From positions 1 through 34,470 of IMG/VR virus record IMGVR_UViG_2917875804_000002: a DNA stretch of 34,470 nt. One strand, written 5' to 3'. The translations under genes were made by a program, and so were the position numbers. Positions within the stretch are counted from its first letter, which is position 1; each line of letters opens with the position of its first letter. Below are positions 1 through 33,163 of the stretch, in pieces. The notes below the pieces were generated by a model. The model ran no database searches. It worked only from the letters and a program-made list of their open reading frames with translations, and was not told where the DNA came from. Source of the DNA: a virus (Duplodnaviria; Heunggongvirae; Uroviricota; Caudoviricetes).

Positions 1-634
1 TTACTGGATACTATTTGAAATAAGAAAGGAATTGCTAGGGTTATCAACGTTAGCATTAAGGCTGCTATCGCAATTATAAAGCCAGTTTTTTTTCGCAATG
101 ATTTTATTGATTTCTTTCGGAAGTCGTTTATCAAGTCCTGCAAAATCCTTTCCCATTCTAGAAAGTTGATCATCATCCAATTTATTTACGATTTTTCCTT
201 GGTAACCTTTAGTCGGTATTATTGTTTTAAATAATAACATTCGGGCTACTGCAGAATTTTGTGTCAATGAGAATGGTTCTTTTGACATATTTACAAGATA
301 TATTGAAATTATGCCATTATATCCAGGGTCAATATGCCCTGGATTCGTCATGATAATTCCATTTTTTGATAGTGTGTTTCTTGGGAATATTACACCAGCT
401 AAATTTTTTTGCAAGTTGGAATTTTTCATTTAACTCTAATATTACAGTTTCCCCTGGCATCAGGATATGGTTGTTACGTGTTTTTTTATTGTCTTGACAG
501 TCTGGTATATGTATTGTTTTTACAGAGAGATCAATGCTTGCAGATTGAACTTTAAATGTTCCATTTAATACCGTTAATGGATCAAAAATGTTGCCTCGCT
601 GAATTTCATCATTGATTTCTATTTCAGACAGCAT
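1..634 (-). CDS. dCTP deaminase/dUTPase-fold protein with C-terminal extension (cargo); reading frame broken by apparent 1-nt insertion in T7 run 404-410
   Basis: ORFs 329..634 and 1..429 overlap in different frames; N-part MLSEIEINDEI...NGTFKVQSASIDLSV and C-part NLAGVIFPRNTLSKNGIIMTNPGHIDPGYNGIISIYLVN resemble E. coli Dcd by eye (RIDPGWSG-type motif); RBS-like AGGA upstream of ATG at 634; strongly AT-rich. Confidence 0.6.
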
Positions 635-4259: not shown

Positions 4260-5113
4260 GCACCATCCTGAAATGGGCGGGAAATAAAACCGCCATTATG
4301 TCCGAACTGAAAAAACATCTTCCTGCTGGCCCGCGACTGGTTGAACCTTTCGCGGGTTCCTGTGCAGTGATGATGGAGACGGATTACCCCAGCTATCTGG
4401 TTGCGGATATTAATCCTGATTTAATCAATCTCTATAAAAAGGTTGCTGCTGATTGTGAGGCGTTTATATCTAGCGCCAGAATTTTGTTTGAGGAAGCAAA
4501 CAGGGAGGTGGCTTATTACAACATAAGGCAGGAGTTTAATTACTCCACTGAAATTACTGATTTCATGAAAGCGGTATATTTCCTGTATCTCAATCGTCAC
4601 GGTTACCGTGGTTTATGTCGCTATAACAAGAGCGGGCATTTCAACATTCCCTACGGTAATTATAAAAATCCGTATTTCCCTGAAAAAGAAATTCGCGCAT
4701 TTGCAGAAAAGGCCCAGCGAGCAACGTTTATCTGCGCCAGCTTTGATGAAACGCTGGCGATGTTGAAGGCGGGGGATGTGGTGTATTGCGATCCGCCGTA
4801 TGACGGTACGTTTTCCGGCTATCACACTGACGGCTTCACTGAAGATGACCAGTATCACCTGGCATCTGTTCTTGAACATCGGTCATCAGAAGGACATCCG
4901 GTCATTGTTTCTAACAGTGACACATCCCTGATCCGTTCGCTGTATCGCAATTTTACTCACCACTACATCAAGGCAAAACGCAGCATCGGCGTAGCAGCTG
5001 GTGAGAGTAAATCTGCAACAGAAATCATCGCTGTTTCTGGGGTGCGCTGCAGGGTGGGATTTGATCCTTCGCGTGGCGTGGATAGTTCTGCCGTGTACGG
5101 AGTGCGTGCATGA
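4256..5113 (+). CDS. dam: DNA adenine methyltransferase (Dam-like, D12 class N6-adenine MTase)
   Basis: N-terminal KWAGNK and EPFAGSCAV (AdoMet motif I), DPPY catalytic motif ([10 protein letters not shown]). Confidence 0.85.
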
Positions 5114-7524
5114 GCCATGCTGATATGAACAACTGCAGCGGCTTTAACGAGGCCGCCGCAGCATTCTCATGGAACAGCCCGAAAAAGGCCATTAACCCTT
5201 ATCTGGACCCGGCAGAAGTTGCGCCGGTTTCTGCGCTTTCAAACCTGATCACTCTGTACGCTACCGATAACGAGCAGGAACAACTGCGCCGCGAGGCACT
5301 GAGTGATCAGGTCTGGGAGCGTTATTTCTTTAATGAATCCCGTGATCCTGTCCAGCGCGAAATGGAGCAGGATAAGCTCATTAGCCGGGCAAAGCTGGCG
5401 CATGAGCAGCAGCGTTTTAATCCGGATATGGTCATTCTGGCGGACGTCAACGCCCAGCCTTCCCATATCAGCAAGCCGCTGATACAACGTATTGAATACT
5501 TCAGCAGCCTGGGCAGGCCAAAGGCTTATTCCCGCTATTTACGTGAGACGATTAAGCCATGTCTGGAACGACTGGAGCATGTACGCGACAGTCAGCTATC
5601 TGCATCTTTTCGCTTTATGGCAAGCCATGAAGGGCTGGACGGCCTGCTGATCCTGCCTGAAATGAGTCAGGATCAGGTGAAACGCCTGTCCACCCTGGTA
5701 GCTGCGCATATGAGTATGTGCCTTGATGCAGCTTGTGGCGATTTGTATGCCACCGATGACGTTAAGCCAGAAGAAATCCGCAAGACATGGGAAAAGGTGG
5801 CAGCGGAAACCCTGCGTCTGGATGTCATCCCGCCTGCGTTTGAGCAACTCCGCCGGAAAAGAAACCGCCGTAAACCCGTGCCCTATGAACTCATTCCGGG
5901 GTCGCTGGCGCGTATGCTGTGCGCCGACTGGTGGTATCGGAAATTGTGGAAGATGCGTTGCGAATGGCGGGAAGAGCAGTTGCGTGCTGTTTGCCTGGTC
6001 AGCAAAAAAGCATCTCCCTATGTCAGCTATGAAGCCGTGATGCATAAACGTGAGCAGCGCCGTAAGTCGCTGGAGTTTTTCCGTTCTCATGAACTGGTGA
6101 ACGAAGACGGCGACACGCTGGACATGGAGGATGTGGTAAACGCCAGCAGCAGCAACCCTGCGCATCGCCGCAATGAGATGATGGCCTGTGTTAAAGGTCT
6201 GGAGCTTATCGCGGAAATGCGCGGTGACTGCGCCGTTTTCTACACCATCACCTGTCCGTCACGTTTCCATTCCACGCTAAATAACGGCAGGCCCAACCCG
6301 ACTTGGACAAATGCGACGGTAAGACAAAGCAGTGATTATCTGGTCGGCATGTTTGCTGCATTTCGTAAGGCGATGCACAAAGCCGGGTTGCGCTGGTATG
6401 GCGTGCGGGTGGCTGAGCCGCATCATGACGGCACAGTTCACTGGCACCTGTTGTGTTTCATGCGCAAAAAAGACCGCCGCGCCATTACTGCATTGTTGCG
6501 TAAGTTTGCTATCCGTGAAGACCGCGAGGAGCTGGGTAATAACACGGGGCCACGCTTTAAGTCTGAGCTGATAAACCCGCGCAAAGGAACGCCGACTAGC
6601 TACATCGCGAAATACATCAGTAAGAACATTGACGGGCGTGGTCTGGCTGGCGAGATCAGCAAGGAAACGGGTAAATCTCTGCGTGATAACGCTGAATACG
6701 TTAATGCCTGGGCGTCTCTGCATCGTGTTCAGCAATTCCGCTTCTTTGGCATTCCGGGGCGTCAGGCTTACCGTGAACTGCGATTGCTGGCTGGTCAGGC
6801 GGCAAGGCAACAGGGTGACAAAAAAGCAGGTGCGCCGGTACTGGATAACCCGCGCCTTGATGCCATTCTGGCTGCAGCTGATGCTGGTTGTTTTGCCACC
6901 TACATCATGAAGCAGGGCGGCGTACTGGTTCCCCGTAAATATCACCTCATCAGAACCGCTTATGAAATCAACGAAGAGCCGACCGCCTATGGCGATCACG
7001 GCATTCGTATTTATGGCATCTGGTCACCCATTGCAGAGGGCAAAATCTGCACTCATGCCGTGAAGTGGAAAATGGTTCGTAAGGCCGTTGACGTTCAGGA
7101 GGCGGCAGCCGACCAGGGCGCTTGCGCCCCTTGGACTCGTGGCAATAACTGTCCCCTTGCTGAAAATTTGTACCAACAAGGGAAAGACAAATCAGCTGAT
7201 GGGGATACCAGAACGGATATCACCCGCATGGATGACAAGGAGTTGCACGATTACCTGCACAGTATGAGCAAAAAAGAGCGCCGGGAACTGGCAGCAAGGT
7301 TACGCCTGGTTAAACCGAAACGGCGTAAAGACTACAAACAGCGAATTACAGACCATCAGCGACAGCAGATCGTCTATGAGCTGAAGTCCAGAGGATTTGA
7401 TGGTAGCGAGAAAGAGGTCGATTTACTCCTTCGCGGCGGCAGTATTCCGTCAGGAGCAGGCCTGCGTATCTTCTATCGGAACCAGCGTTTGCAGGAAGAT
7501 GATAAGTGGCGGAACCTGTATTAA
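5110..7524 (+). CDS. A: replication initiation endonuclease (P2/186 gene A, rolling-circle initiator)
   Basis: 804-aa ORF at the position of gene A; HxH-type metal motif TVHWHLL; start overlaps dam stop. Confidence 0.85.
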
Positions 7525-8229: not shown

Positions 8230-8649
8230 CTATAAATTAGTTTTTATTAGATAGTGCCTTTGTGCCCCTGCTTTAGGGAAATCAGGTAATGACATTTGAA
8301 GTATATAACCCTGTTTTTCATAAAAAGGGAGCGCCTGGAAGCTAAATGTATCGACAAGGCCATGAATACAACCGTTCATCACACCTTCTTTCTCAGCCAT
8401 GCTCATAAGTTTGCTACCCAAACCGCCACTCCGTGCTGATTCACTCACCCAAAGATAATCAATACACAGCCATGGACCTTTCCTGTCCGCAATTAACCCA
8501 CCTACCATCTCTCCGATTTCATTTCTGCAGTAGACACCGATCTGTCCATTTTTACTAAAATCGATAAACTGAGCATTGTAGCTTCTTAGCCCCGCTAACA
8601 GTTCTTCTCTATCATATTCAGTAACTTTATGAACTACTTGAATGTTCAT
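8230..8649 (-). CDS. GNAT-family N-acetyltransferase (cargo at the old/tin-equivalent position)
   Basis: 139 aa; acetyl-CoA binding motif region [12 protein letters not shown]; AT-rich; oriented opposite to early operon, just inside cos. Confidence 0.7.
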
Positions 8650-8964: not shown

Positions 8965-8983
8965 ATAAAGCGGGCAGGCGTGG
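8965..8983. other. cos-like cohesive-end sequence of P2/186 family
   Basis: GGCGTGGCGGGGATACGAG: first 13 nt match my recollection of the 186/P2 19-nt cohesive end (GGCG[T/A]GGCGGGGAAAGCA[T/C]); GC-rich island in AT-rich surroundings, located between gene A side and portal side. Confidence 0.4.
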
Positions 8984-9084
8984 CGGGGATACGAGCGCGC
9001 GCGGGCCATAGAACTAACTTATTGTATCTTGTAAACATTTGAGCATGTTGTAAGGAACAAAACCCTAATGTTATCATCAAAAAA

Positions 9085-10369
9085 ATGTTAGTTGGTTTAG
9101 AAGGAATGATGATGCAAAAGCAAAGGGTTTCTCAAGTATTCGTTCCCGGAGGTATGCCAAAGTTAACTTATGTTGAACGGACTGGGGGCGAGATAAAAGA
9201 AAGACTTGAGAGTGCAAAAGATAATTTGTGTAAGTTGGTTACCTTGACGGGACAAACCAAATCCGGAAAGACTGTACTTACACAAATGGTGTTTCCCTTT
9301 ACTGATCCGAATGTCATATGGATTGATGGTGGCGGTATTGCTGTCGAAAATGATATTTGGGAGCAAGTTTTAGACAAATTAGATATTTACACTAATGAGG
9401 AGGTCAACGTTTCTGATTCCTCATCAACTAATATCTCAGGCAAGGTTCATGCATCTGGTAGTGCCCTTGTTGTAAAAGGAGGAGGAGAGGCAGGGGTTTC
9501 GCAGACCGATGGGTCTTCTAAAGGTAAAAAAAAATGCAAGAACGATTACCCCAAAAAATGCGGCGATTAAAGCCTTAGCAGATAGTCAGGCTAGCCTTAT
9601 TATTGATGACTTTCATTACTTAGATAGAGAAATGCAGGGCAGCTTTGTAAGAGCAGTAAAGCCTTTAGTGTTTCATGGTGTACCTGTAATATTAATTGCT
9701 ATTCCACATAGAAGATACGATGCGATAAAAGTTGAGAGGGAGATTACTGGAAGATTAGAAAATATAATGATGCCATATTGGTCAGAAGATGAATTAAAAC
9801 AGATTGCATCATCGGGTTTTCCTCTTTTAAATATATCTGTATCTCAAGACGTTATAGACTTGCTTGCATCTGAAGCTTTAGGTAGCCCACATTTAATGCA
9901 AGAATTTTGCAAAAGTTTGTGTGCTGCTCATTCAATAAAAGAAACATCTGAGCAGACAGTGACAATATCTTCTATTGATGACTCACTGTTTAGAAATGTA
10001 GCTGAATCAACAGGGAAAGTGGTATTCGATAAATTAGCAACTGGCCCTCGCCAACGTTCCGATAGGTTGCCTCGTTTATTAAAGAATGGCGAGAGAGTTG
10101 ATATTTATAAAGTTGTCTTATATGCACTCTCTAACATGAAACCAGGAATGCAAACTATTCAGTATGAAGAGTTACGTACTGCTATTAGAGAAATAGTCGC
10201 AGAAACACCTCCCCAGGCTAATGAGGTTACACGAGTTCTTGAAAAAATGAGCGAGATCGCATCTAGTGAAGAGGCTTCAACACCGGTTATAGATTGGGAG
10301 AGAGAAGAACAAAAACTACATATTACCGATCCATTTTTTGCGTTTTACCTAAAATGGCGTGATCATTAA
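9085..10369 (+). CDS. P-loop NTPase of unknown family (cargo); frame broken in A9 run 9526-9534; true start probably ATG 9106-9112
   Basis: ORFs 9085..9570 and 9509..10369 overlap by 62 nt; Walker A GQTKSGKT in N-part, Walker B-like LIIDDFHYL in C-part; AT-rich; GAAGGA RBS before ATG triplet. Confidence 0.6.
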
Positions 10370-10374
10370 AAACG

Positions 10375-10400
10375 ACAGAACCGTCATATGACGGTTCTGT
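10375..10400. terminator. perfect 26-bp palindrome between convergent NTPase and portal genes, probable bidirectional terminator
   Basis: ACAGAACCGTCAT/ATGACGGTTCTGT, perfect 13+13 inverted repeat, flanked by A-run upstream and T/A-rich stretch downstream. Confidence 0.45.
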
Positions 10401-10409
10401 ATAATTTCA

Positions 10410-11445
10410 TTATGACCCTGCTAGGTAATACTTATCGAAAATAATAACTCTCTCGCCAAGCCAGTCGTTTAGTTCTTCCATTTGCTTCTGTAATGGCATT
10501 AATTCGTTCCGTACAAAAACTCGACTCGCCTTCTCCACATCCCCAAAACCCCCAACATTATTCGGCATTATCCCCATCATTTGCGGCGGCACGCGGTGTG
10601 CCGCCATCATGTCATCCCGGCTCACGTTCTTGATGTTCAGAAATTCATCCTTCGCTGCGACTTCTGACAACGGGATGATCTGAAGCCCGTCTTTTTTTGC
10701 CATTAGGCGAGTACATAAACAGGTTGCGGAAGTTACCAGGACCTTTGGCACTTTTCATCGCGTTGCGGAGATTGTTCACATCCTCCTGATTCTGCGCGGC
10801 ATCGGTCATATACATGATGAAGCCTGCATGGCTGCCGTTGATGTAATATTTGCGTCGGAACAGCGTGGCGGACTCATTGAGCAGGGCGGACGGAATGGCA
10901 GAAAGATAGCCGGGCAGGCCGTAGATCTCCTGGTTAATGTCCGGTTCCATCAGATGAAAAATGCTGCCTTTCGTGAACTGATACGGCTGGGTTGTCATAC
11001 CGTATTGCACAAACCAGTAGGTATCCAGGTCTAACCCGCGTCGGGTGTATTTTGCCAGAGCAGGCTCAAGGGCGATAACTTCACCGAAGCGGTTCGTGCG
11101 TTTCTCCAGGTAGGCGTTACCAAATACCAGATAGTCCTGCACAAAACGTGAAAAAGCCTGCTGGCTGAGCAGCGGGTGGGGGATGTAGGTACTGGTCAGA
11201 ATGTTGCATTTCACCGCAATTGGTGAACTGTGATGCACGGCGGCGCGGAAGGTGCGCGCCAGTCCGTCAAAGCTTACTGGCGGCTCATACCAGCGATCTG
11301 TCTGTACGCATTCCACATAGTCCAGTAGTTCGCGGCGGTCCAGAACAGGAACGGGATCACCGAAGCTGAATGCTTCGGCTGTAGTTTGACTTTTATGCTG
11401 GATCTGGTTCGTCGACGCAGCGCGGTTCTTCTTACTCTTTCCCAT
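10410..11445 (-). CDS. Q: portal (capsid portal protein, P2 gpQ-like); frame broken in T7 run 10691-10697
   Basis: ORFs 10645..11448 and 10410..10751 overlap; combined length about 345 aa; convergent partner of terminase, position next to cos. Confidence 0.85.
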
Positions 11446-13211
11446 CAAAAAATCTCCACAATATTACTGGTATTGGCGGACTCGCCCTGCAGTGGTTCGT
11501 TAAACAGTGCGTGCATTGTTGCCCAGGCCAGATCGGCGTGGCTGGCTTCTTCGCTGCGGCTGGCTTCATAGGTTGGGCGGTTGCCACTGGCGGTGGTTGC
11601 GCGACGGATTGCCATGAATGACTGCGCAATGTCGGTGTGCCCGGCGTCAAACTCCAGACGGCGGTGGCTGATAATGTCGTAGGCCTTGAGTACCAGGGCG
11701 TTTTTAACGTTGGGGTTGTAGACAAACTCCCGGACGGCAGGAAAGAACGCTTTCACGTTCTCGTAAACCCCGTGACCAACGCCGGTTGAGTCGATACCGA
11801 TATAAGTCACGTTGTACTGTTCGGTCAGTTTTTTGATGGCGTCAGCCTGGGCGCGGAAGTCCATCCCGCGCCACTGGTGACGCTCAAGAATGCGGAACTT
11901 ACCACCCGGCACGGCTGGCGGTGCCACCACCACGCATCCGGCGCTGTCGCCGTTTTGCGTACCTTTTGCCGGGTCATAACCGATCCACACTTCGCGCCAG
12001 CCAAACGGGCGCAGCGCCAGTGCATGAAAGTCGGTCCAGACTTCCCAACTGTCCACCATGCACGCCTGCAGCTCGCTGAGCGGAAACACGGACGCGAGAT
12101 CGTCCACAAACTCGCACATCAGCAGGTTCTGGTATTCGTCCGGGCTGTACTCCATGCGCAACTGGTCGAGGTCGAACAGGTTACAGCCGCCGCGCACCGC
12201 ATCTTCCACGGTGACTATCTGGCGGTACTGCCCGTCTGCGCACAGCAGGCCGGGGGCCAGATTGCTGTGGGACAGGTCGATGTCCACCTTATCGGCTTTG
12301 TTGCGCCCACGGTTGAACAGCGCACCGGACCAGAATGGATAAGCACTGTGGGTCAGACTGGATGGCGTGGAAAAATAGGTCTGCCGCCATTTTTTGTGAA
12401 TAGCCATACCGGAAGCCACTTTGCGCAGCTCCTGGAATTTCGGGATCCAGAAATATTCATCCAGATACAAGTTGCCGTGGTAACTCTGGGCCGTGCGGGC
12501 ATTGGTTCCGAGGAAGTAAAGCGTGGCCCCATTAGGAAGCACCATCGGATCGCCTTTCAGCTCCACCTCCACTTCTTTGGCGAAGTCGATGATGTACTGC
12601 TTAAAGACGTGGGCCTGTGCCTTACTGGCGGAAAGGAAAATCTGGTTACGTCCGGTCAGCAGGGCGTCAATCAGGGCTTCACGGGCAAAATAGAAGGTCG
12701 CGCCGATCTGGCGTGACTTCAGCAGGTTGCGGATGCGGTTGGTTTTTCCGGCTTCCCACCAGTGGCGCTGGTAGTTGAACATGGAGGAATGAAAGATTTC
12801 TTCCAGCTTCTCAATCTGTTCATCGGTGAAAACATTCTTTTCCGGCTGACGGCGCGGGCCTTTGTTACGGTTGGCGACGTTAGGGTTTAAGTCGGCTTCG
12901 TTGCCGCCATTGTTAAACTTACCGATCCGCGCATGGCGCTCCGACTGGCGCGCCAGCAGGTCAATCTCTTTGAAATCTTTCCCTTCTTTGTGCTCCTTCA
13001 TAATGAGCTGGCAGTAGCGTGCGGCGGTGGTGAGCTGCATCTGATCCAGCGGCCCATAGTCACCCCACTTGTCGCGTTTTTTCCAGCTGTGAACGGTTGC
13101 AACTTTCTCGCCCAGCATTTCAGCAATGCGGGCTACGCGGTATCCCTGAAAGTACAGCAGCATGGCCTGCCGACGGGGATCGAGATCTGCGGGTGTCAGT
13201 GTGGTGTTCAT
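11445..13211 (-). CDS. P: terminase large (ATPase) subunit, P2 gpP-like
   Basis: 588-aa ORF upstream of portal on same strand, divergent from scaffold gene. Confidence 0.9.
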   Translation of the reverse strand: MNTTLTPADLDPRRQAMLLYFQGYRVARIAEMLGEKVATVHSWKKRDKWGDYGPLDQMQLTTAARYCQLIMKEHKEGKDFKEIDLLARQSERHARIGKFNNGGNEADLNPNVANRNKGPRRQPEKNVFTDEQIEKLEEIFHSSMFNYQRHWWEAGKTNRIRNLLKSRQIGATFYFAREALIDALLTGRNQIFLSASKAQAHVFKQYIIDFAKEVEVELKGDPMVLPNGATLYFLGTNARTAQSYHGNLYLDEYFWIPKFQELRKVASGMAIHKKWRQTYFSTPSSLTHSAYPFWSGALFNRGRNKADKVDIDLSHSNLAPGLLCADGQYRQIVTVEDAVRGGCNLFDLDQLRMEYSPDEYQNLLMCEFVDDLASVFPLSELQACMVDSWEVWTDFHALALRPFGWREVWIGYDPAKGTQNGDSAGCVVVAPPAVPGGKFRILERHQWRGMDFRAQADAIKKLTEQYNVTYIGIDSTGVGHGVYENVKAFFPAVREFVYNPNVKNALVLKAYDIISHRRLEFDAGHTDIAQSFMAIRRATTASGNRPTYEASRSEEASHADLAWATMHALFNEPLQGESANTSNIVEIF

Positions 13212-23802: not shown

Positions 23803-24813
23803 ATGAAAGAGAATAAAATACGTTCTGCCGATGGCGTGAGAGGTTTCGCTTTGATGATTGTTGTGGTGATGCATGCTACGGGACTATTCTTTCCCTCACT
23901 TCATGATCATCTCGGAGGTACGGGGCAGCCCGGTGTTTGGTTGTTTTTTGTTCTTAGCGCCTTTTTGTTGACACATAAATTTATTAATTCTGGTTTTTCG
24001 TTTTTGAATGTGTTGAGTTATCTTTTAGGGCGAACAATAAGGATATTACCGATTTTTTATATTGCAGTATTAATTTATTACCTTATGGGATTTTATGATT
24101 TAGAGAAAATGAAATCGATAATTTCATTTGATAGTACTTACATCCATTTCTGGACTATTCCGATAGAATTCAAGTTTTACTTTTTGTTGCCGATTGTGGT
24201 TTATCTCGCATCTAGTATCCAGAAAGTTGCAGGTAGAAAATATTCTTTGTTGTTTTTGATATTGTTAACCTTAGCGTTCGCTTTTATATACCCTTATACG
24301 GATGACGAAATCAACGGTAGGCTACCGTATTACATTCCTGTTTTTATGTATGGAATTATAATTGCGTTTATGTATAACTATTTTCAAATTAAAATATCAT
24401 CTCTCGTTAGTGATGGGGTGTCAATTGCGATTATATTAATATTTATAATGTTGACCCCTCCTTTTCAGGGGGCTAATGGTTGGCTGGGTAATAAATTTGT
24501 GGTATTAGGGCCATTTATTGCTCTCTTTGTATATTTGCAAGTAAATTCCAGTGGGTATGTAAGCGCGGTTTTATCTTCAAAAATCATGGCGGATTTGGGG
24601 AAATATAGTTTTTCAATTTATTTGTTTCATATAATGATAATTTTTATTGTTTATCCTAAATTTTTGGATAATGTTACTGCATACTTAGTTACTATAGCTT
24701 TATGTATTGGCGGTGGGGCTATTGCCTATCATTGCATTGAATCTCCCTTGGAATCGTTCAGACATAAGCTTATGAAAAGAATAACGCAGGCTTATCAGAA
24801 TCAAAATATTTAA
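23803..24813 (+). CDS. acyltransferase family 3 integral membrane protein (OafA/Oac-like O-acetyltransferase), cargo at Z/fun-equivalent locus
   Basis: 336 aa, about 10 hydrophobic segments, N-terminal RGFALMIVVVMH (conserved His in first TM), very AT-rich, own upstream region. Confidence 0.75.
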   Translation: MKENKIRSADGVRGFALMIVVVMHATGLFFPSLHDHLGGTGQPGVWLFFVLSAFLLTHKFINSGFSFLNVLSYLLGRTIRILPIFYIAVLIYYLMGFYDLEKMKSIISFDSTYIHFWTIPIEFKFYFLLPIVVYLASSIQKVAGRKYSLLFLILLTLAFAFIYPYTDDEINGRLPYYIPVFMYGIIIAFMYNYFQIKISSLVSDGVSIAIILIFIMLTPPFQGANGWLGNKFVVLGPFIALFVYLQVNSSGYVSAVLSSKIMADLGKYSFSIYLFHIMIIFIVYPKFLDNVTAYLVTIALCIGGGAIAYHCIESPLESFRHKLMKRITQAYQNQNI

Positions 24814-25041: not shown

Positions 25042-26215
25042 ATGGCTCAGGATTACCACCACGGGGTGCGCGTTGTTGAAGTCAACGAAGGCACCCGATC
25101 TATTACCACGGTGAGCACCGCCATCGTGGGCATGGTCTGCACGGGCGATGATGCCGATGCAAAAAATGTTTCCTCTTAATAAACCCGTGCTGATCACTGA
25201 TGTACTGACCGCCAGCGGTAAAGCGGGTGAGTCCGGCACGCTGGCCCGTTCGCTGGATGCCATCGCTGACCAGGCAAAACCCGTGACCGTTGTTGTGCGT
25301 GTGCCACAGGGTGAAACGGAAGAAGAAACCACAACCAATATCATTGGCGCAGTGACCGCCGAGGGTAAAAAAACAGGCATGAAAGCCCTGTTATCTGCCC
25401 AGACACAGCTCGGCGTTAAACCGCGCATTCTCGGCGTGCCAGGTCACGATAACAAAGCCGTTGCTACTGAGTTGCTGAGTGTGGCGCAAAGCCTGCGTGG
25501 GTTTGCCTACCTGTCAGCGTATGGCTGCAAGACGGTACAGGAGGCGATCACTTACCGTGAAAATTTCAGCCAGCGCGAAGGAATGCTGATCTGGCCTGAC
25601 TTTACTGGCTGGGACACGGTGCTGAATGCCGAAGCAACGGCATATGCCACCGCCCGTGCGCTTGGTCTGCGTGCCAAAATTGATGAGCAGACCGGGTGGC
25701 ACAAAAGCCTGTCCAACGTGGGCGTGAACGGTGTCACCGGAATTTCTGCAGATGTGTTCTGGGATCTGCAGGACCCGGCAACCGATGCAGGTCTGCTGAA
25801 CCAGAACGACGTCACCACGCTTGTGCGTAAAGACGGTTTCCGCTTCTGGGGTTCTCGCTGCCTGAGTGATGACCCGCTCTTTGCCTTCGAAAACTACACC
25901 CGCACGGCGCAGGTGCTGACGGACACAATGGCAGAAGCGCACATGTGGGCAGTGGACAAACCGCTGAACCCGTCGCTGGCGCGCGACATTATCGAGGGCA
26001 TCCGCGCCAAAATGCGCAGCCTGGTCAGTCAGGGGTATCTCATTGGTGGTGATTGCTGGCTGGACGAGTCGGTGAACGACAAAGACACGCTGAAAGCCGG
26101 AAAACTCACCATCGACTATGACTACACGCCAGTGCCGCCACTTGAAAATCTGATGCTGCGTCAGCGCATCACCGATCAGTACCTGGTGAATTTTGCCAGC
26201 CAGGTCAGCGCGTAA
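25042..26215 (+). CDS. FI: tail sheath protein FI; frame broken in A6 run 25160-25165
   Basis: ATG 25042 with GGAGG RBS gives [34 protein letters not shown] then frame switches to ORF 25148..26215 ([13 protein letters not shown]...), both parts closely parallel to P2 FI. Confidence 0.85.
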
Positions 26216-32800: not shown

Positions 32801-33163
32801 TGGTGGAGCTGGCGGGAGTTGAACCCGCGTCCGAAATTCCTACATCCTCGGTACTACATGCTTAGTCAGTCTTTACATTCGCTTGCCAGCTGCGGACAGA
32901 CACGCCACTAACAAACTAGCCTGATTAAGTTTTAACGCTTCAACCCCAGGCTGGGCTTCCACGCGATCTCTTTTGGGTTTGACCTCTCTTGATCCCCGTC
33001 CTAAGAGCGGAGGCTAGGGAGAGAGGGCTCTAAGCAGGTTATTAAGCTGCTAAAGCGTAGTTTTCGTCGTTTGCGACTATTTTTTGCGGCTTTTTACGAG
33101 GCCAACCGCCCCTCGGCATGCACCTTGGGTTTCGCAAATCCCGTCGAATCCAGAATCAGCCCC
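32801..33163 (-). ncRNA. ssrA: tmRNA (SsrA RNA)
   Basis: 363 nt; reverse complement begins GGGGCTGATTCTGGATTCGACGGG and ends CCAGCTCCACCA, matching E. coli tmRNA essentially throughout. Confidence 0.95.

What the first reader, a model, noticed from the sequence alone, without database searches (positions are those of the whole stretch)
9043..10400. Orphan P-loop NTPase inserted between cos and the portal gene: candidate single-gene anti-phage module
Seen in sequence: two overlapping ORFs (9085..9570, 9509..10369) that join across an A9 run into one protein of about 425 aa, with Walker A GQTKSGKT, a low-complexity Gly/Ser loop, a Walker B-like LIIDDFHYLD about 110 aa later and a long helical C-terminal half. 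The gene is AT-rich against the GC-balanced phage core and ends in a perfect 26-bp palindrome. Established knowledge: P2-family prophages carry defence genes (old, tin and others) in the variable region around cos. Inference: it sits on the portal side of the cos-like sequence at 8965, where P2 and 186 have almost nothing. No nuclease, TOPRIM or other effector domain is visible, and the N-terminus does not resemble the OLD/Gabija/PARIS ABC-ATPase pattern as far as I can judge by eye.
Basis: partly seen in the sequence, partly recalled or inferred. Interest (0 to 1): 0.65.

Follow-up and report, generated by a model that had tools for sequence, protein, structure and literature searches.

The report
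Frameshifted candidate defence ATPase, P2 hotspot
The two overlapping reading frames are one roughly 419-residue ATPase gene, probably broken by a homopolymer sequencing error, that belongs to an already catalogued but untested candidate anti-phage family (PADLOC PDC-S59) and sits in the known cargo hotspot of P2-like prophages.

Summary
ORFs 9085-9570 and 9509-10369 become one gene if the A9 run (9526-9534) is read as A8. Three complete E. coli genomes carry that intact gene, and it differs from the joined window protein at one residue.

The break is probably an artefact. The window, which matches Escherichia sp. E4208, has at least five uncompensated +1 insertions in A/T runs, and these also split the portal, the tail sheath and a dCTP-deaminase-like gene.

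The protein is not an orphan. It matches the PADLOC model PDC-S59 over its full length (E = 2.7e-36). PDC-S59 is one of 145 untested "guilt-by-embedding" defence candidates.

The predicted fold is an ORC/Cdc6-STAND-type AAA+ ATPase with a lid and a C-terminal winged helix. A hypervariable disordered loop sits in the insert after strand 2. No effector domain is present.

The family is rare, about 420 residues long, and 40-57% identical across more than 20 phyla. It has no conserved neighbouring gene.

In Escherichia and Salmonella it recurs as several divergent alleles in the same slot between cos and the portal gene. That slot lies inside the published gpA-gpQ hotspot of P2-like phages.

A defence role is plausible, at about 0.55-0.6, but it is untested. 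The mechanism I give is inferred.

The parts
8978..8996 (.). cos-like 19-nt core GGCGTGGCGGGGATACGAG. The backbone shared with other P2-like prophages ends about 7 nt further on, near 9003.
   Evidence: This stretch is invariant in alignment A4 across prophages with four different cargos. Window 8900-9002/9015 matches 1281 E. coli records. The resemblance to the P2/186 cohesive-end sequence is from memory and was not tested.
9004..10409 (+). Cargo module: 5' leader, ATPase gene and terminator. The variable DNA continues into the last 15-30 codons of the portal gene.
   Evidence: Sequence diverges by cargo type immediately after 9003 (A4). It diverges again through roughly 10410-10500 (A3 and A5). 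GC is 37.9% in 9001-10000.
9048..9077 (+). Sigma-70 promoter-like site TTGTAA-18-TATCAT with a TG extension.
   Evidence: Consensus scan, 9 of 12 matches. The number of such sites in the region is no higher than in shuffles, so this is weak evidence.
9110..9534 (+). ATPase CDS, 5' part. The mechanical ORF listing gives 9085-9570. The likely true start is ATG 9110, preceded by AAGGA.
   Evidence: ORF list. Homologues begin at MMQKQ or MxKYR. The Salmonella copy shares GGAxxxATGATGCAAA.
9250..9273 (+). Walker A motif GQTKSGKT.
   Evidence: Read from the sequence. T55, G56, T58, K59, G61 and K62 are invariant in 34 homologues.
9382..9559 (+). Hypervariable Gly/Ser/Thr/Lys-rich loop (residues ~100-158) inside the helix-extension-helix insert after strand 2.
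   Evidence: Almost no conserved columns in alignment A1. pLDDT is below 50 for residues 105-151. dN is about three times that of the rest of the gene, but omega is 0.09-0.32.
9526..9534 (+). A9 homopolymer. Intact alleles have A8, and an E. albertii allele has A7.
9535..10369 (+). ATPase CDS, 3' part, in the +1 frame. The mechanical ORF listing gives 9509-10369. Stop codon TAA at 10367-10369.
9596..9625 (+). Walker B motif LIIDDFHYLD, of the hhhhDD + aromatic type seen in STAND NTPases.
   Evidence: Read from the sequence. I173, D174, D175, F176, H177 and Y178 are invariant.
9701..9715 (+). IPHRR after strand 4, a candidate sensor-1 / arginine motif.
   Evidence: I206, P207, H208 and R209 are invariant and R210 nearly so. 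The functional assignment is inferred from its position in the AF2 model.
9881..9892 (+). GSPH in the lid, at the position of the RuvB/ORC 'G(T/S)PR' sensor-2 motif or the STAND GxP motif.
   Evidence: S267, P268 and H269 are invariant. The profile alignment to RuvB places GsPhlmq opposite GtPRia.
10375..10400 (.). 26-nt palindrome, an intrinsic terminator hairpin between the convergent ATPase and portal genes.
   Evidence: Terminator scan: 11-bp stem, 4-nt loop and a T run on the minus strand. The stem is conserved in E. coli and Salmonella copies. Prophages with other cargos have different hairpins at this point.
10410..11448 (-). Portal gene Q, split here into 10410-10751 and 10645-11448 by an extra T in the T7 run at 10692.
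   Evidence: The gene is an intact 1035-nt CDS in NCTC9064 and SW071618.

Best explanation
**What it is**
Window 9004-10409 is a single-gene cargo module in the cos-proximal gpA-gpQ hotspot of a P2/186-like prophage. It encodes one ~419-residue protein of the PADLOC candidate family PDC-S59. The fold is an ORC/Cdc6-STAND-type AAA+ ATPase: an alpha/beta core, a lid and a C-terminal winged helix. A disordered, hypervariable loop sits in the helix-extension-helix insert after strand 2. There is no enzymatic effector domain and no partner gene.

**The split**
The split into two ORFs comes from one extra A in an A8 run. This is most likely a homopolymer sequencing or assembly error.

**Most likely function (inferred, not shown)**
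The gene is expressed from its own promoter in the lysogen and acts as a stand-alone anti-phage module.

**Proposed mechanism (inferred)**
- ATP binding drives a switch or oligomerisation, as in ORC/Cdc6, TnsC/MuB and STAND proteins.
- The trigger or scaffold would be a phage nucleic-acid structure or a phage protein.
- The variable loop and the basic GPRQRSDR/winged-helix region would provide the contact surface.
- The assembled form would block phage replication or packaging directly, or engage a host factor.
- In the rare TIR-fused relatives, the same switch would activate the TIR domain.
For: **Identity**
- Full-length PDC-S59 match: E = 2.7e-36, residues 7-418 against model positions 4-403 of 428.

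**One gene**
- Intact single CDS in three E. coli genomes, with one amino-acid difference from the joined window protein.
- Homologues are about 420 residues throughout.

**Artefact**
- All uncompensated indels against the NCTC9064 prophage are +1 insertions in A/T runs in the window. They break the ATPase, portal and sheath genes.
- A fifth such insertion breaks the dCTP-deaminase-like gene.

**Fold**
- AF2 model: pLDDT 75, pTM 0.66.
- Foldseek top hits: Orc1-DNA complex 2v1u, ORC1, RFC and CED-4.
- Catalytic motifs are invariant.

**Stand-alone**
- No neighbouring gene family recurs in more than 3 of 80 loci from different species.

**Context**
- Same slot in Salmonella prophages and in 8 of 9 close IMG/VR contigs.
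- Alleles 71-86% identical sit beside near-identical terminases, which indicates cargo swapping.
- The hotspot is known to hold defence genes (PMC9122126). The cos-to-portal side holds a retron Ec78-type system in strain N10.
- PDC families were defined from genes embedded in BREX, DISARM or type I RM loci.
- Some neighbours elsewhere are RM methylases, SspA/DndA, AriA, viperin and PglW.
- One close homologue and one distant homologue carry TIR domains.
- Distribution is sporadic: 299 of 185,579 species genomes, across more than 20 phyla.
Against: - No experiment exists for this family. I found no paper text naming PDC-S59, and it is not among the PDC candidates tested in PMC12881386.
- The defence-island signal outside P2 is only partial. 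Eight of nine large flanking proteins have no PADLOC hit, and many neighbours are housekeeping genes.
- The P2 hotspot also carries non-defence cargo such as partition systems and toxins.
- Conservation of about 56% identity across phyla is unusual for a sensor that binds fast-evolving phage proteins.
- The variable loop shows relaxed constraint, not demonstrable positive selection.
- The TIR fusion in the close family is a single sequence on a 2-kb contig.
- Pfam AAA_22 is below its gathering score for this protein: 23.1 against 27 bits.
- The copy in this window is frameshifted. If that is real, the gene is inactive here.
Confidence: 0.55

Rival explanations
1. The A9 allele is real. The gene is then a recent pseudogene, or a slip-strand on/off (contingency) locus in a decaying prophage. 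The two ORFs might be made separately, or full-length protein might be partly restored by transcriptional slippage on the A9 run.
For: - An independent A7 allele at the same tract exists in E. albertii, seen on several contigs including a 4.7-Mb chromosome. The tract is therefore a genuine mutational hotspot.
- Both fragments are deposited as proteins of Escherichia sp. E4208.
- RNA polymerase slippage on runs of nine or more A's in E. coli is established knowledge (from memory: Wagner et al. 1990; Tamas et al. 2008).
Against: - The tract is not conserved. The Salmonella allele has A6, and the V. cholerae and Dryocola copies have no run of six or more A's at that position.
- About 145 contigs carry the intact A8 form.
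- The window has four further +1 insertions in A/T runs, two of them in essential structural genes (portal and sheath). Natural decay would not be expected to produce only +1 homopolymer insertions.
Confidence: 0.2
2. The protein is not a defence factor. It is a maintenance or replication accessory of mobile elements: an ORC/Cdc6-like DNA-binding ATPase acting as an initiator, loader or partition-type factor for the prophage or island that carries it.
For: - The best structural matches are replication initiators, clamp loaders and transposition target selectors.
- Distant relatives (26-37% identity) in other viral contigs lie near DnaB helicase, DnaT-domain and methylase genes.
- About a quarter of P2 hotspots carry partition systems.
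Against: - The gene is dispensable and swappable among P2-like prophages whose replication module (gpA) is otherwise the same. It is present in only 10 of 5426 E. coli genomes, while 1276 carry the cos region.
- It has no conserved partner, origin-like repeats or helicase beside it in 80 loci.
- The V. cholerae copy is solitary between housekeeping genes, next to a transposase.
- TIR fusions and embedding in BREX/DISARM/RM loci point to immunity.
Confidence: 0.12
3. It is a phage-benefiting counter-defence or superinfection-exclusion factor aimed at specific competitors or host systems, rather than a general host-protective immune sensor.
For: - It is carried next to cos in temperate phages.
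- Hotspot genes are known to mediate competition between P2-like phages.
- High sequence conservation would fit a conserved host target.
Against: - Most family members are chromosomal in genomes from many phyla, with no phage context.
- Only 17 of 2.9 million IMG/VR contigs carry a relative over most of its length (two further matches cover only the last ~20 residues), as does 1 of 50,697 phage records.
- Known anti-defence proteins are usually small and phage-restricted (general knowledge).
Confidence: 0.08

Closest known systems
PADLOC PDC-S59 (single-gene 'phage defence candidate', Payne et al., bioRxiv 10.1101/2024.01.29.577857)
   Same: Full-length HMM match at E = 2.7e-36. Single-gene architecture. 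The fusion variants match the same model.
   Different: Nothing structural; this is the family. The family itself is untested: it is one of 145 candidates predicted from embedding in BREX, DISARM or type I RM loci. The copy in this window carries a frameshift.
Archaeal/eukaryotic Orc1/Cdc6 initiators (e.g. PDB 2v1u, 2qby, 1fnn) and the uncharacterised archaeal ATPases PABY2304 (2qen) and SSO1545 (2fna)
   Different: - Only 12-16% identity, and no significant sequence match to PDB.
- Walker B is DD rather than DE.
- The sensor-2 position holds His rather than Arg.
- The insert carries a ~45-residue disordered hypervariable loop.
- The third winged-helix helix, at the recognition-helix position, is acidic.
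- Distribution is sporadic and mobile, not a replication gene.
BREX ORC/Cdc6-type ATPases BrxC and stand-alone BrxD
   Different: - No PADLOC BrxC or BrxD model matched at E <= 1.
- BrxC is 1200-1300 residues and works inside a multi-gene system.
- BrxD is tightly linked to the BrxHI helicase.
- This protein has no partner.
STAND / NLR-like Avs and bNACHT antiviral ATPases
   Different: It lacks both defining outer modules: there is no N-terminal effector and no C-terminal repeat sensor. It is about 419 residues, against usually more than 1000.
P2 Old, Gabija GajA and PARIS AriA (ABC-type ATPase defence proteins of the same hotspot)
   Same: P-loop ATPases carried as cargo next to cos in P2/P4-type elements.
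   Different: The fold class differs: those are ABC ATPases with a TOPRIM or other nuclease partner. No match to those models, and the fold search returns AAA+ proteins only.

Membership tests
PADLOC PDC-S59 | Significant, near full-length match to the family HMM | tested here: met
   E = 2.7e-36, 123.5 bits, residues 7-418 against model positions 4-403 of 428. It was the only PADLOC model at E <= 1.
PADLOC PDC-S59 | Single-gene system with no obligatory partner | tested here: met
   In 80 loci from different species, no flanking gene family occurs in more than 3 loci. In P2-like prophages the gene upstream of cos varies: HNH, GNAT, DUF6236 or none.
PADLOC PDC-S59 | Anti-phage activity | not testable with these tools
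   The family is listed among 145 untested candidates. No paper text names PDC-S59, and it is not among the PDC candidates tested in PMC12881386.
ORC/Cdc6-STAND clade of AAA+ ATPases | Walker A GxxxxGK[ST] and an acidic Walker B on a five-stranded alpha/beta core | tested here: met
   GQTKSGKT and LIIDD are invariant in 34 homologues. The AF2 core shows strands 51-55, 77-81, 170-174, 201-204 and 224-228.
ORC/Cdc6-STAND clade of AAA+ ATPases | Helix-extension-helix (initiator-specific) insert after strand 2 | tested here: inconclusive
   The model has helix 88-99, a hairpin at 104-108/149-153 with a disordered tip, then helix 156-167 before Walker B. The topology fits, but the tip has pLDDT below 50 and no residue-level superposition was available.
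ORC/Cdc6-STAND clade of AAA+ ATPases | Helical lid followed by a C-terminal winged helix | tested here: met
ORC/Cdc6-STAND clade of AAA+ ATPases | Pfam AAA_22 or AAA_16 above the gathering score | tested here: inconclusive
   Window protein: AAA_22 23.1 bits against a cutoff of 27, and AAA_16 17.8 against 32.6. Family member P0216: AAA_16 43.4 and AAA_22 39.5, both above cutoff. Many homologues carry precomputed PF13401 or PF13191 hits.
STAND NLR-like antiviral proteins (Avs / bNACHT) | Tripartite architecture: effector, NTPase, large repeat sensor | tested here: not met
   About 419 residues, with no N-terminal effector and no C-terminal repeats.
ABC-ATPase defence proteins (OLD / GajA / AriA) | ABC ATPase fold with a TOPRIM or nuclease partner or domain | tested here: not met
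   No PADLOC, Pfam or NCBIfam hit to these families. Structural neighbours are AAA+ proteins only. No partner gene.
Cargo of the P2-like gpA-gpQ (cos-proximal) hotspot | Lies between replication gene A and portal gene Q, next to cos, with variable occupancy among related prophages | tested here: met
   gpA lies at 5110-7524, cos at 8978-8996 and the portal gene at 10410-11448. The same interval holds a retron Ec78-type system in one E. coli prophage and a gene pair that includes a STAS-like domain protein in another. Hotspot definition is from PMC9122126.
Programmed frameshift / phase-variable contingency gene | Slippery tract conserved among homologues | tested here: not met
   A8 occurs only in the Escherichia allele. 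The Salmonella allele has A6 at this site, and allele 2 and more distant homologues encode different residues there.

The most novel reading that the evidence does not exclude
PDC-S59 proteins would be a minimal, effector-less immune module: a ~420-residue ORC/Cdc6-STAND ATPase that is sufficient on its own to exclude phages. It would act by ATP-driven assembly on a phage DNA structure or replication intermediate, rather than through any enzymatic effector. The hypervariable insert loop would set specificity. The almost invariant remainder (about 56% identity from Enterobacteria to Cyanobacteria, Planctomycetes and CPR bacteria) would reflect contact with a universal target.
Probability: 0.2. 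Interest if true: 0.65.

Novelty: new member of a known kind. Interest (0 to 1): 0.35.

Why it matters
If the family does defend against phages, it would be one of the smallest ORC/STAND-type immune proteins. It would also be a clean test of how such an ATPase can protect a cell without a nuclease, NADase, protease or membrane effector.

The family is experimentally convenient. It is a single 1.26-kb gene, and natural alleles of 71%, 86% and 100% identity occupy the same slot in closely related P2-like prophages.

For annotation, the practical points are:
- WP_240726021 and WP_240726022 are two halves of one gene.
- The E4208 prophage probably carries several homopolymer errors.
- The cos-to-portal interval should be treated as part of the known hotspot.

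Tried and rejected
**Profile and sequence searches**
- NCBIfam gave only a meaningless BrxF hit at E = 0.16.
- A profile search of PDB sequences gave only marginal RuvB lid matches at E = 0.035.
- PHROGs gave only an unknown-function family, phrog_6841.

**Structure searches**
- The AFDB Foldseek library was unavailable.
- The BFVD viral fold search gave only generic clamp-loader and AAA+ hits.

**Hidden partners**
- Rfam found nothing but tmRNA.
- There are no direct repeats flanking the cargo.
- No conserved neighbouring gene was found.

**Selection on the loop**
- omega is 0.09-0.32 and dS is saturated, so there is no evidence for positive selection.

**TIR fusions**
- Querying with the fused protein returned only itself as a fusion. 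This evidence is thin.

**Large neighbours**
- I tested nine large flanking proteins as possible BREX, DISARM or RM components. Eight had no PADLOC hit.

**Literature**
- The P4-hotspot 'AAA_22/NB-ARC' entry in Rousset Table S1B is a different protein.
- Whether the single-gene 'AAA_22' P2 loci in their Table S5A (WP_032286573) are this family could not be verified.
- PDC-S59 appears in no paper text or held supplement.

**Rejected readings**
- Programmed frameshifting or phase variation, because the tract is not conserved.
- ABC-ATPase (OLD/PARIS/Gabija) kinship.
- A special role for the palindrome beyond transcription termination.
Full report
**1. Observation**

The two ORFs exist as described: 9085-9570 in frame 1 and 9509-10369 in frame 2. 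The run at 9526-9534 is exactly A9. Deleting one A gives a continuous ORF.

That joined protein differs at a single residue (V138L) from WP_244574139.1. WP_244574139.1 is annotated as one 1284-nt CDS in three complete E. coli genomes: NCTC9064, SW071618 and ZH177.

Homologues and the Salmonella copy start at MMQKQ, so the real start is probably ATG 9110. That gives about 419 residues.

The remaining details check out:
- Walker A GQTKSGKT at 9250-9273.
- Walker B LIIDDFHYLD at 9596-9625.
- A low-complexity stretch between them.
- Low GC, 38.8% against 50.9% for the window.
- A 26-nt palindrome at 10375-10400.
- A cos-like core at 8978-8996.

**2. The frameshift**

The two fragments are exact matches to proteins deposited for Escherichia sp. 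E4208 (WP_240726021 and WP_240726022). This identifies the probable source of the window.

I aligned the window to the related NCTC9064 prophage. Every uncompensated indel is a +1 insertion in an A/T homopolymer in the window:
- A7 against A6 at 9079.
- A9 against A8 at 9526.
- T7 against CT5 at 10692, which splits the portal gene.
- A6 against A5 at 25161, which splits the tail sheath gene.

A fifth case lies in the dCTP-deaminase-like gene at 1-634. Removing one A from an A run there restores a 210-residue ORF.

A one-directional error confined to homopolymers, which also disables two essential virion genes, points to a sequencing or assembly artefact rather than natural decay.

The tract is nevertheless a real mutational hotspot. 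E. albertii carries an independent A7 allele on several contigs.

The tract is not conserved. The Salmonella allele has A6 and others have no run. I therefore reject programmed frameshifting or designed phase variation.

If A9 were real, transcriptional slippage on the run could still yield some full-length protein. This rests on established knowledge and was not tested here.

**3. What the protein is**

*Profile searches*
- PADLOC gives one hit, PDC-S59: E = 2.7e-36 over the full length.
- Pfam gives only sub-threshold AAA_22 and AAA_16 hits.
- NCBIfam gives nothing useful.

*What PDC-S59 is*
- They were derived from genes embedded in BREX, DISARM or type I RM loci (Payne et al., bioRxiv 10.1101/2024.01.29.577857).
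- I found no paper text naming PDC-S59.
- It was not among the PDC candidates tested in a later study (PMC12881386).

*Predicted structure*
- The AlphaFold2 model was built from 34 homologues (pLDDT 75, pTM 0.66). It shows an AAA+ alpha/beta core, a helical lid and a C-terminal winged helix. Residues 105-151 and 209-220 are disordered.
- Foldseek against PDB is led by the Orc1-DNA complex 2v1u, ORC1, RFC subunits and CED-4.

*Motifs*
- The motifs have a STAND/ORC flavour: a DD Walker B followed by aromatics, invariant IPHRR after strand 4, and invariant GSPH in the lid at the position of the RuvB GTPR sensor 2.
- The insert after strand 2 matches the helix-extension-helix feature described for this clade (PMC12839542). 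Its tip is the low-complexity loop.

It is not an ABC ATPase of the OLD, Gabija or PARIS kind.

**4. The family**

*Size and spread*
- There are more than 1900 homologues in the 90%-identity collection.
- In 1.84 billion representatives there are 620 clusters at E <= 1e-30 and 2305 at E <= 1e-3.
- 299 of 185,579 species genomes encode a relative.
- The 80 best loci span more than 20 phyla, including CPR bacteria and one archaeal MAG, at 39-71% identity.

*Conservation*
- Length is almost always about 420 residues.
- Conservation is very high, about 56% identity between Enterobacteria and Cyanobacteria or Planctomycetes, everywhere except residues ~100-158, which are hypervariable.
- Among P2-slot alleles, dN in the loop is about three times that of the rest. 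Omega stays at 0.09-0.32, so only relaxed constraint is shown.

*Neighbours*
- No neighbouring gene family recurs in more than 3 of 80 loci.
- Immediate neighbours include RM methylases, SspA/DndA, AriA, viperins, PglW, restriction enzymes and integrases.
- They also include plain housekeeping genes.
- Eight of nine large flanking proteins have no PADLOC hit.
- The defence-island signal is therefore present but partial.

*Rare fusions*
- A C-terminal TIR/SEFIR-like domain: one sequence in the close family, plus a distant TIR-domain relative on a Gloeothece plasmid.
- A second STAND/ATPase_2-like NTPase, in P0216 and P0219.

**5. Genomic setting**

The backbone shared by P2-like prophages ends at about 9003, immediately after the cos core. 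Downstream sequence depends on the cargo (A4).

At the other end, the terminator stem belongs to the cargo. It is conserved in E. coli and Salmonella copies, and other cargos bring their own hairpins (A3). Variability extends into the last 15-30 portal codons (A5).

The same gene sits in the same place, convergent with and about 40-50 nt from the portal stop codon:
- in Salmonella prophages, with an 86%-identical allele found on hundreds to thousands of contigs;
- in 8 of 9 close IMG/VR contigs.

A second E. coli allele (416 residues, about 71% identical) lies beside terminase genes 99.8% identical to those next to allele 1. This shows cargo swapping between alleles.

Prevalence in complete E. 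coli genomes is low: 3 genomes for allele 1 and 7 for allele 2, out of 5426. In contrast, 1276 genomes carry the cos region.

The slot itself is not new:
- Rousset et al. defined the hotspot as the whole gpA-gpQ interval around cos (PMC9122126).
- In strain N10 a retron Ec78-type system occupies the cos-to-portal side.
- In strain LR-46 a gene pair that includes a STAS-like domain protein occupies it.

Outside P2-like prophages, the V. cholerae copy is a solitary gene next to a Tn5-like transposase. Deposited phage genomes almost never carry the family: 1 of 50,697 records, at 28% identity.

**6. Function and mechanism**

*Shown here*
- One gene.
- Family membership.
- Fold class and intact catalytic motifs in the family.
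- Stand-alone organisation.
- Recurrent hotspot cargo.

*Inferred*
- Anti-phage function, which I put at about 0.55-0.6.
- It rests on the hotspot position, the origin of the PDC family, some defence-gene neighbours, the TIR fusions, the STAND-like motifs, the sporadic mobile distribution and the low GC.

*Mechanism (inferred by analogy, about 0.3)*
- An ATP-dependent switch or oligomerisation, as in ORC/Cdc6, TnsC/MuB or STAND proteins.
- The assembly would form on phage DNA or after sensing a phage factor.
- The variable insert loop and the conserved basic GPRQRSDR/winged-helix region would be the contact surfaces.
- The outcome would be a block of replication or packaging, or recruitment of a host factor.

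The very high conservation argues for a conserved ligand, such as nucleic acid or a host protein, rather than a fast-evolving phage protein.

*Rivals*
- A real pseudogene or slip-strand switch (0.2).
- A mobile-element maintenance or replication accessory (0.12).
- A phage-serving counter-defence or exclusion factor (0.08).

**7. Verdict**

The gene is a frameshifted copy, probably through sequencing error, of a known but unvalidated candidate defence family in a known hotspot. I therefore class it as a new member of a known kind.

It is a reasonable experimental target, because an effector-less minimal ORC/STAND ATPase would be mechanistically interesting. It is not a surprise in itself. Interest 0.35.

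Noticed in passing
window 10410-11448 (-), T7 run at 10692: The portal gene Q is split into two ORFs (10410-10751 and 10645-11448) by one extra T relative to the intact 1035-nt portal genes of NCTC9064 and SW071618.
   Followed up: yes
window 25042-26215 (+), A6 run at 25161: The tail sheath (FI) gene is frameshifted about 40 codons in by an extra A (A6 against A5 in NCTC9064). This leaves a 355-residue ORF at 25148-26215 instead of about 390 residues.
   Followed up: yes
window 1-634 (-): An AT-rich (35% GC) dCTP-deaminase/dUTPase-fold gene lies just outside the integrase (698-1675). It is also split into two ORFs, and deleting one A from an A run restores a 210-residue ORF. It may be nucleotide-depletion defence cargo in the int-att slot, but neither fragment hit a PADLOC model.
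   Followed up: partly
window 8230-8649 (-): A 139-residue GNAT acetyltransferase occupies the tin/old side of cos. The same protein cluster is common in Salmonella and E. coli. In the three E. coli genomes with the intact ATPase, this position instead holds an HNH endonuclease, a hypothetical protein, or IS1 plus DUF6236.
   Followed up: partly
window 23803-24813 (+): An AT-rich (34-42% GC) Acyl_transf_3 family gene sits in the Z/fun slot between the tail-fibre genes and the sheath gene. It looks like an O-antigen acetylase-type lysogenic-conversion gene.
   Followed up: partly
window 32801-33163 (-): A tmRNA gene (ssrA, tag ANDENYALAA) lies next to the ogr end of the prophage, so this is presumably the integration site.
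   Followed up: no
window 10087-10106 and 10439-10458: A 20-nt inverted repeat, 90% complementary, links the ATPase gene and the 3' end of the portal gene. Both arms encode GERV(D/I)I on their own strand. It could be chance or a trace of recombination at the cargo boundary.
   Followed up: no
P0134/P0135 and P0124 (E. albertii); same tract as window 9526-9534: An independent A7 frameshift allele of the same gene exists in Escherichia albertii, seen on several contigs including a 4.7-Mb chromosome. The A8 tract therefore mutates in both directions.
   Followed up: partly
L100, L101, L103 (IMG/VR) and H54-H60 (E. coli genomes): A second allele of the ATPase (416 residues, about 71% identical) occupies the same cos-to-portal slot. 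It lies next to terminase genes 99.8% identical to those beside allele 1, and the last ~16 portal residues differ with the allele.
   Followed up: partly
P0216 and P0219 (metagenomic proteins, ~900-917 aa): Rare family members carry a C-terminal second P-loop NTPase with weak ATPase_2, ORC-CDC6-like and nSTAND matches, making a tandem ATPase variant.
   Followed up: partly
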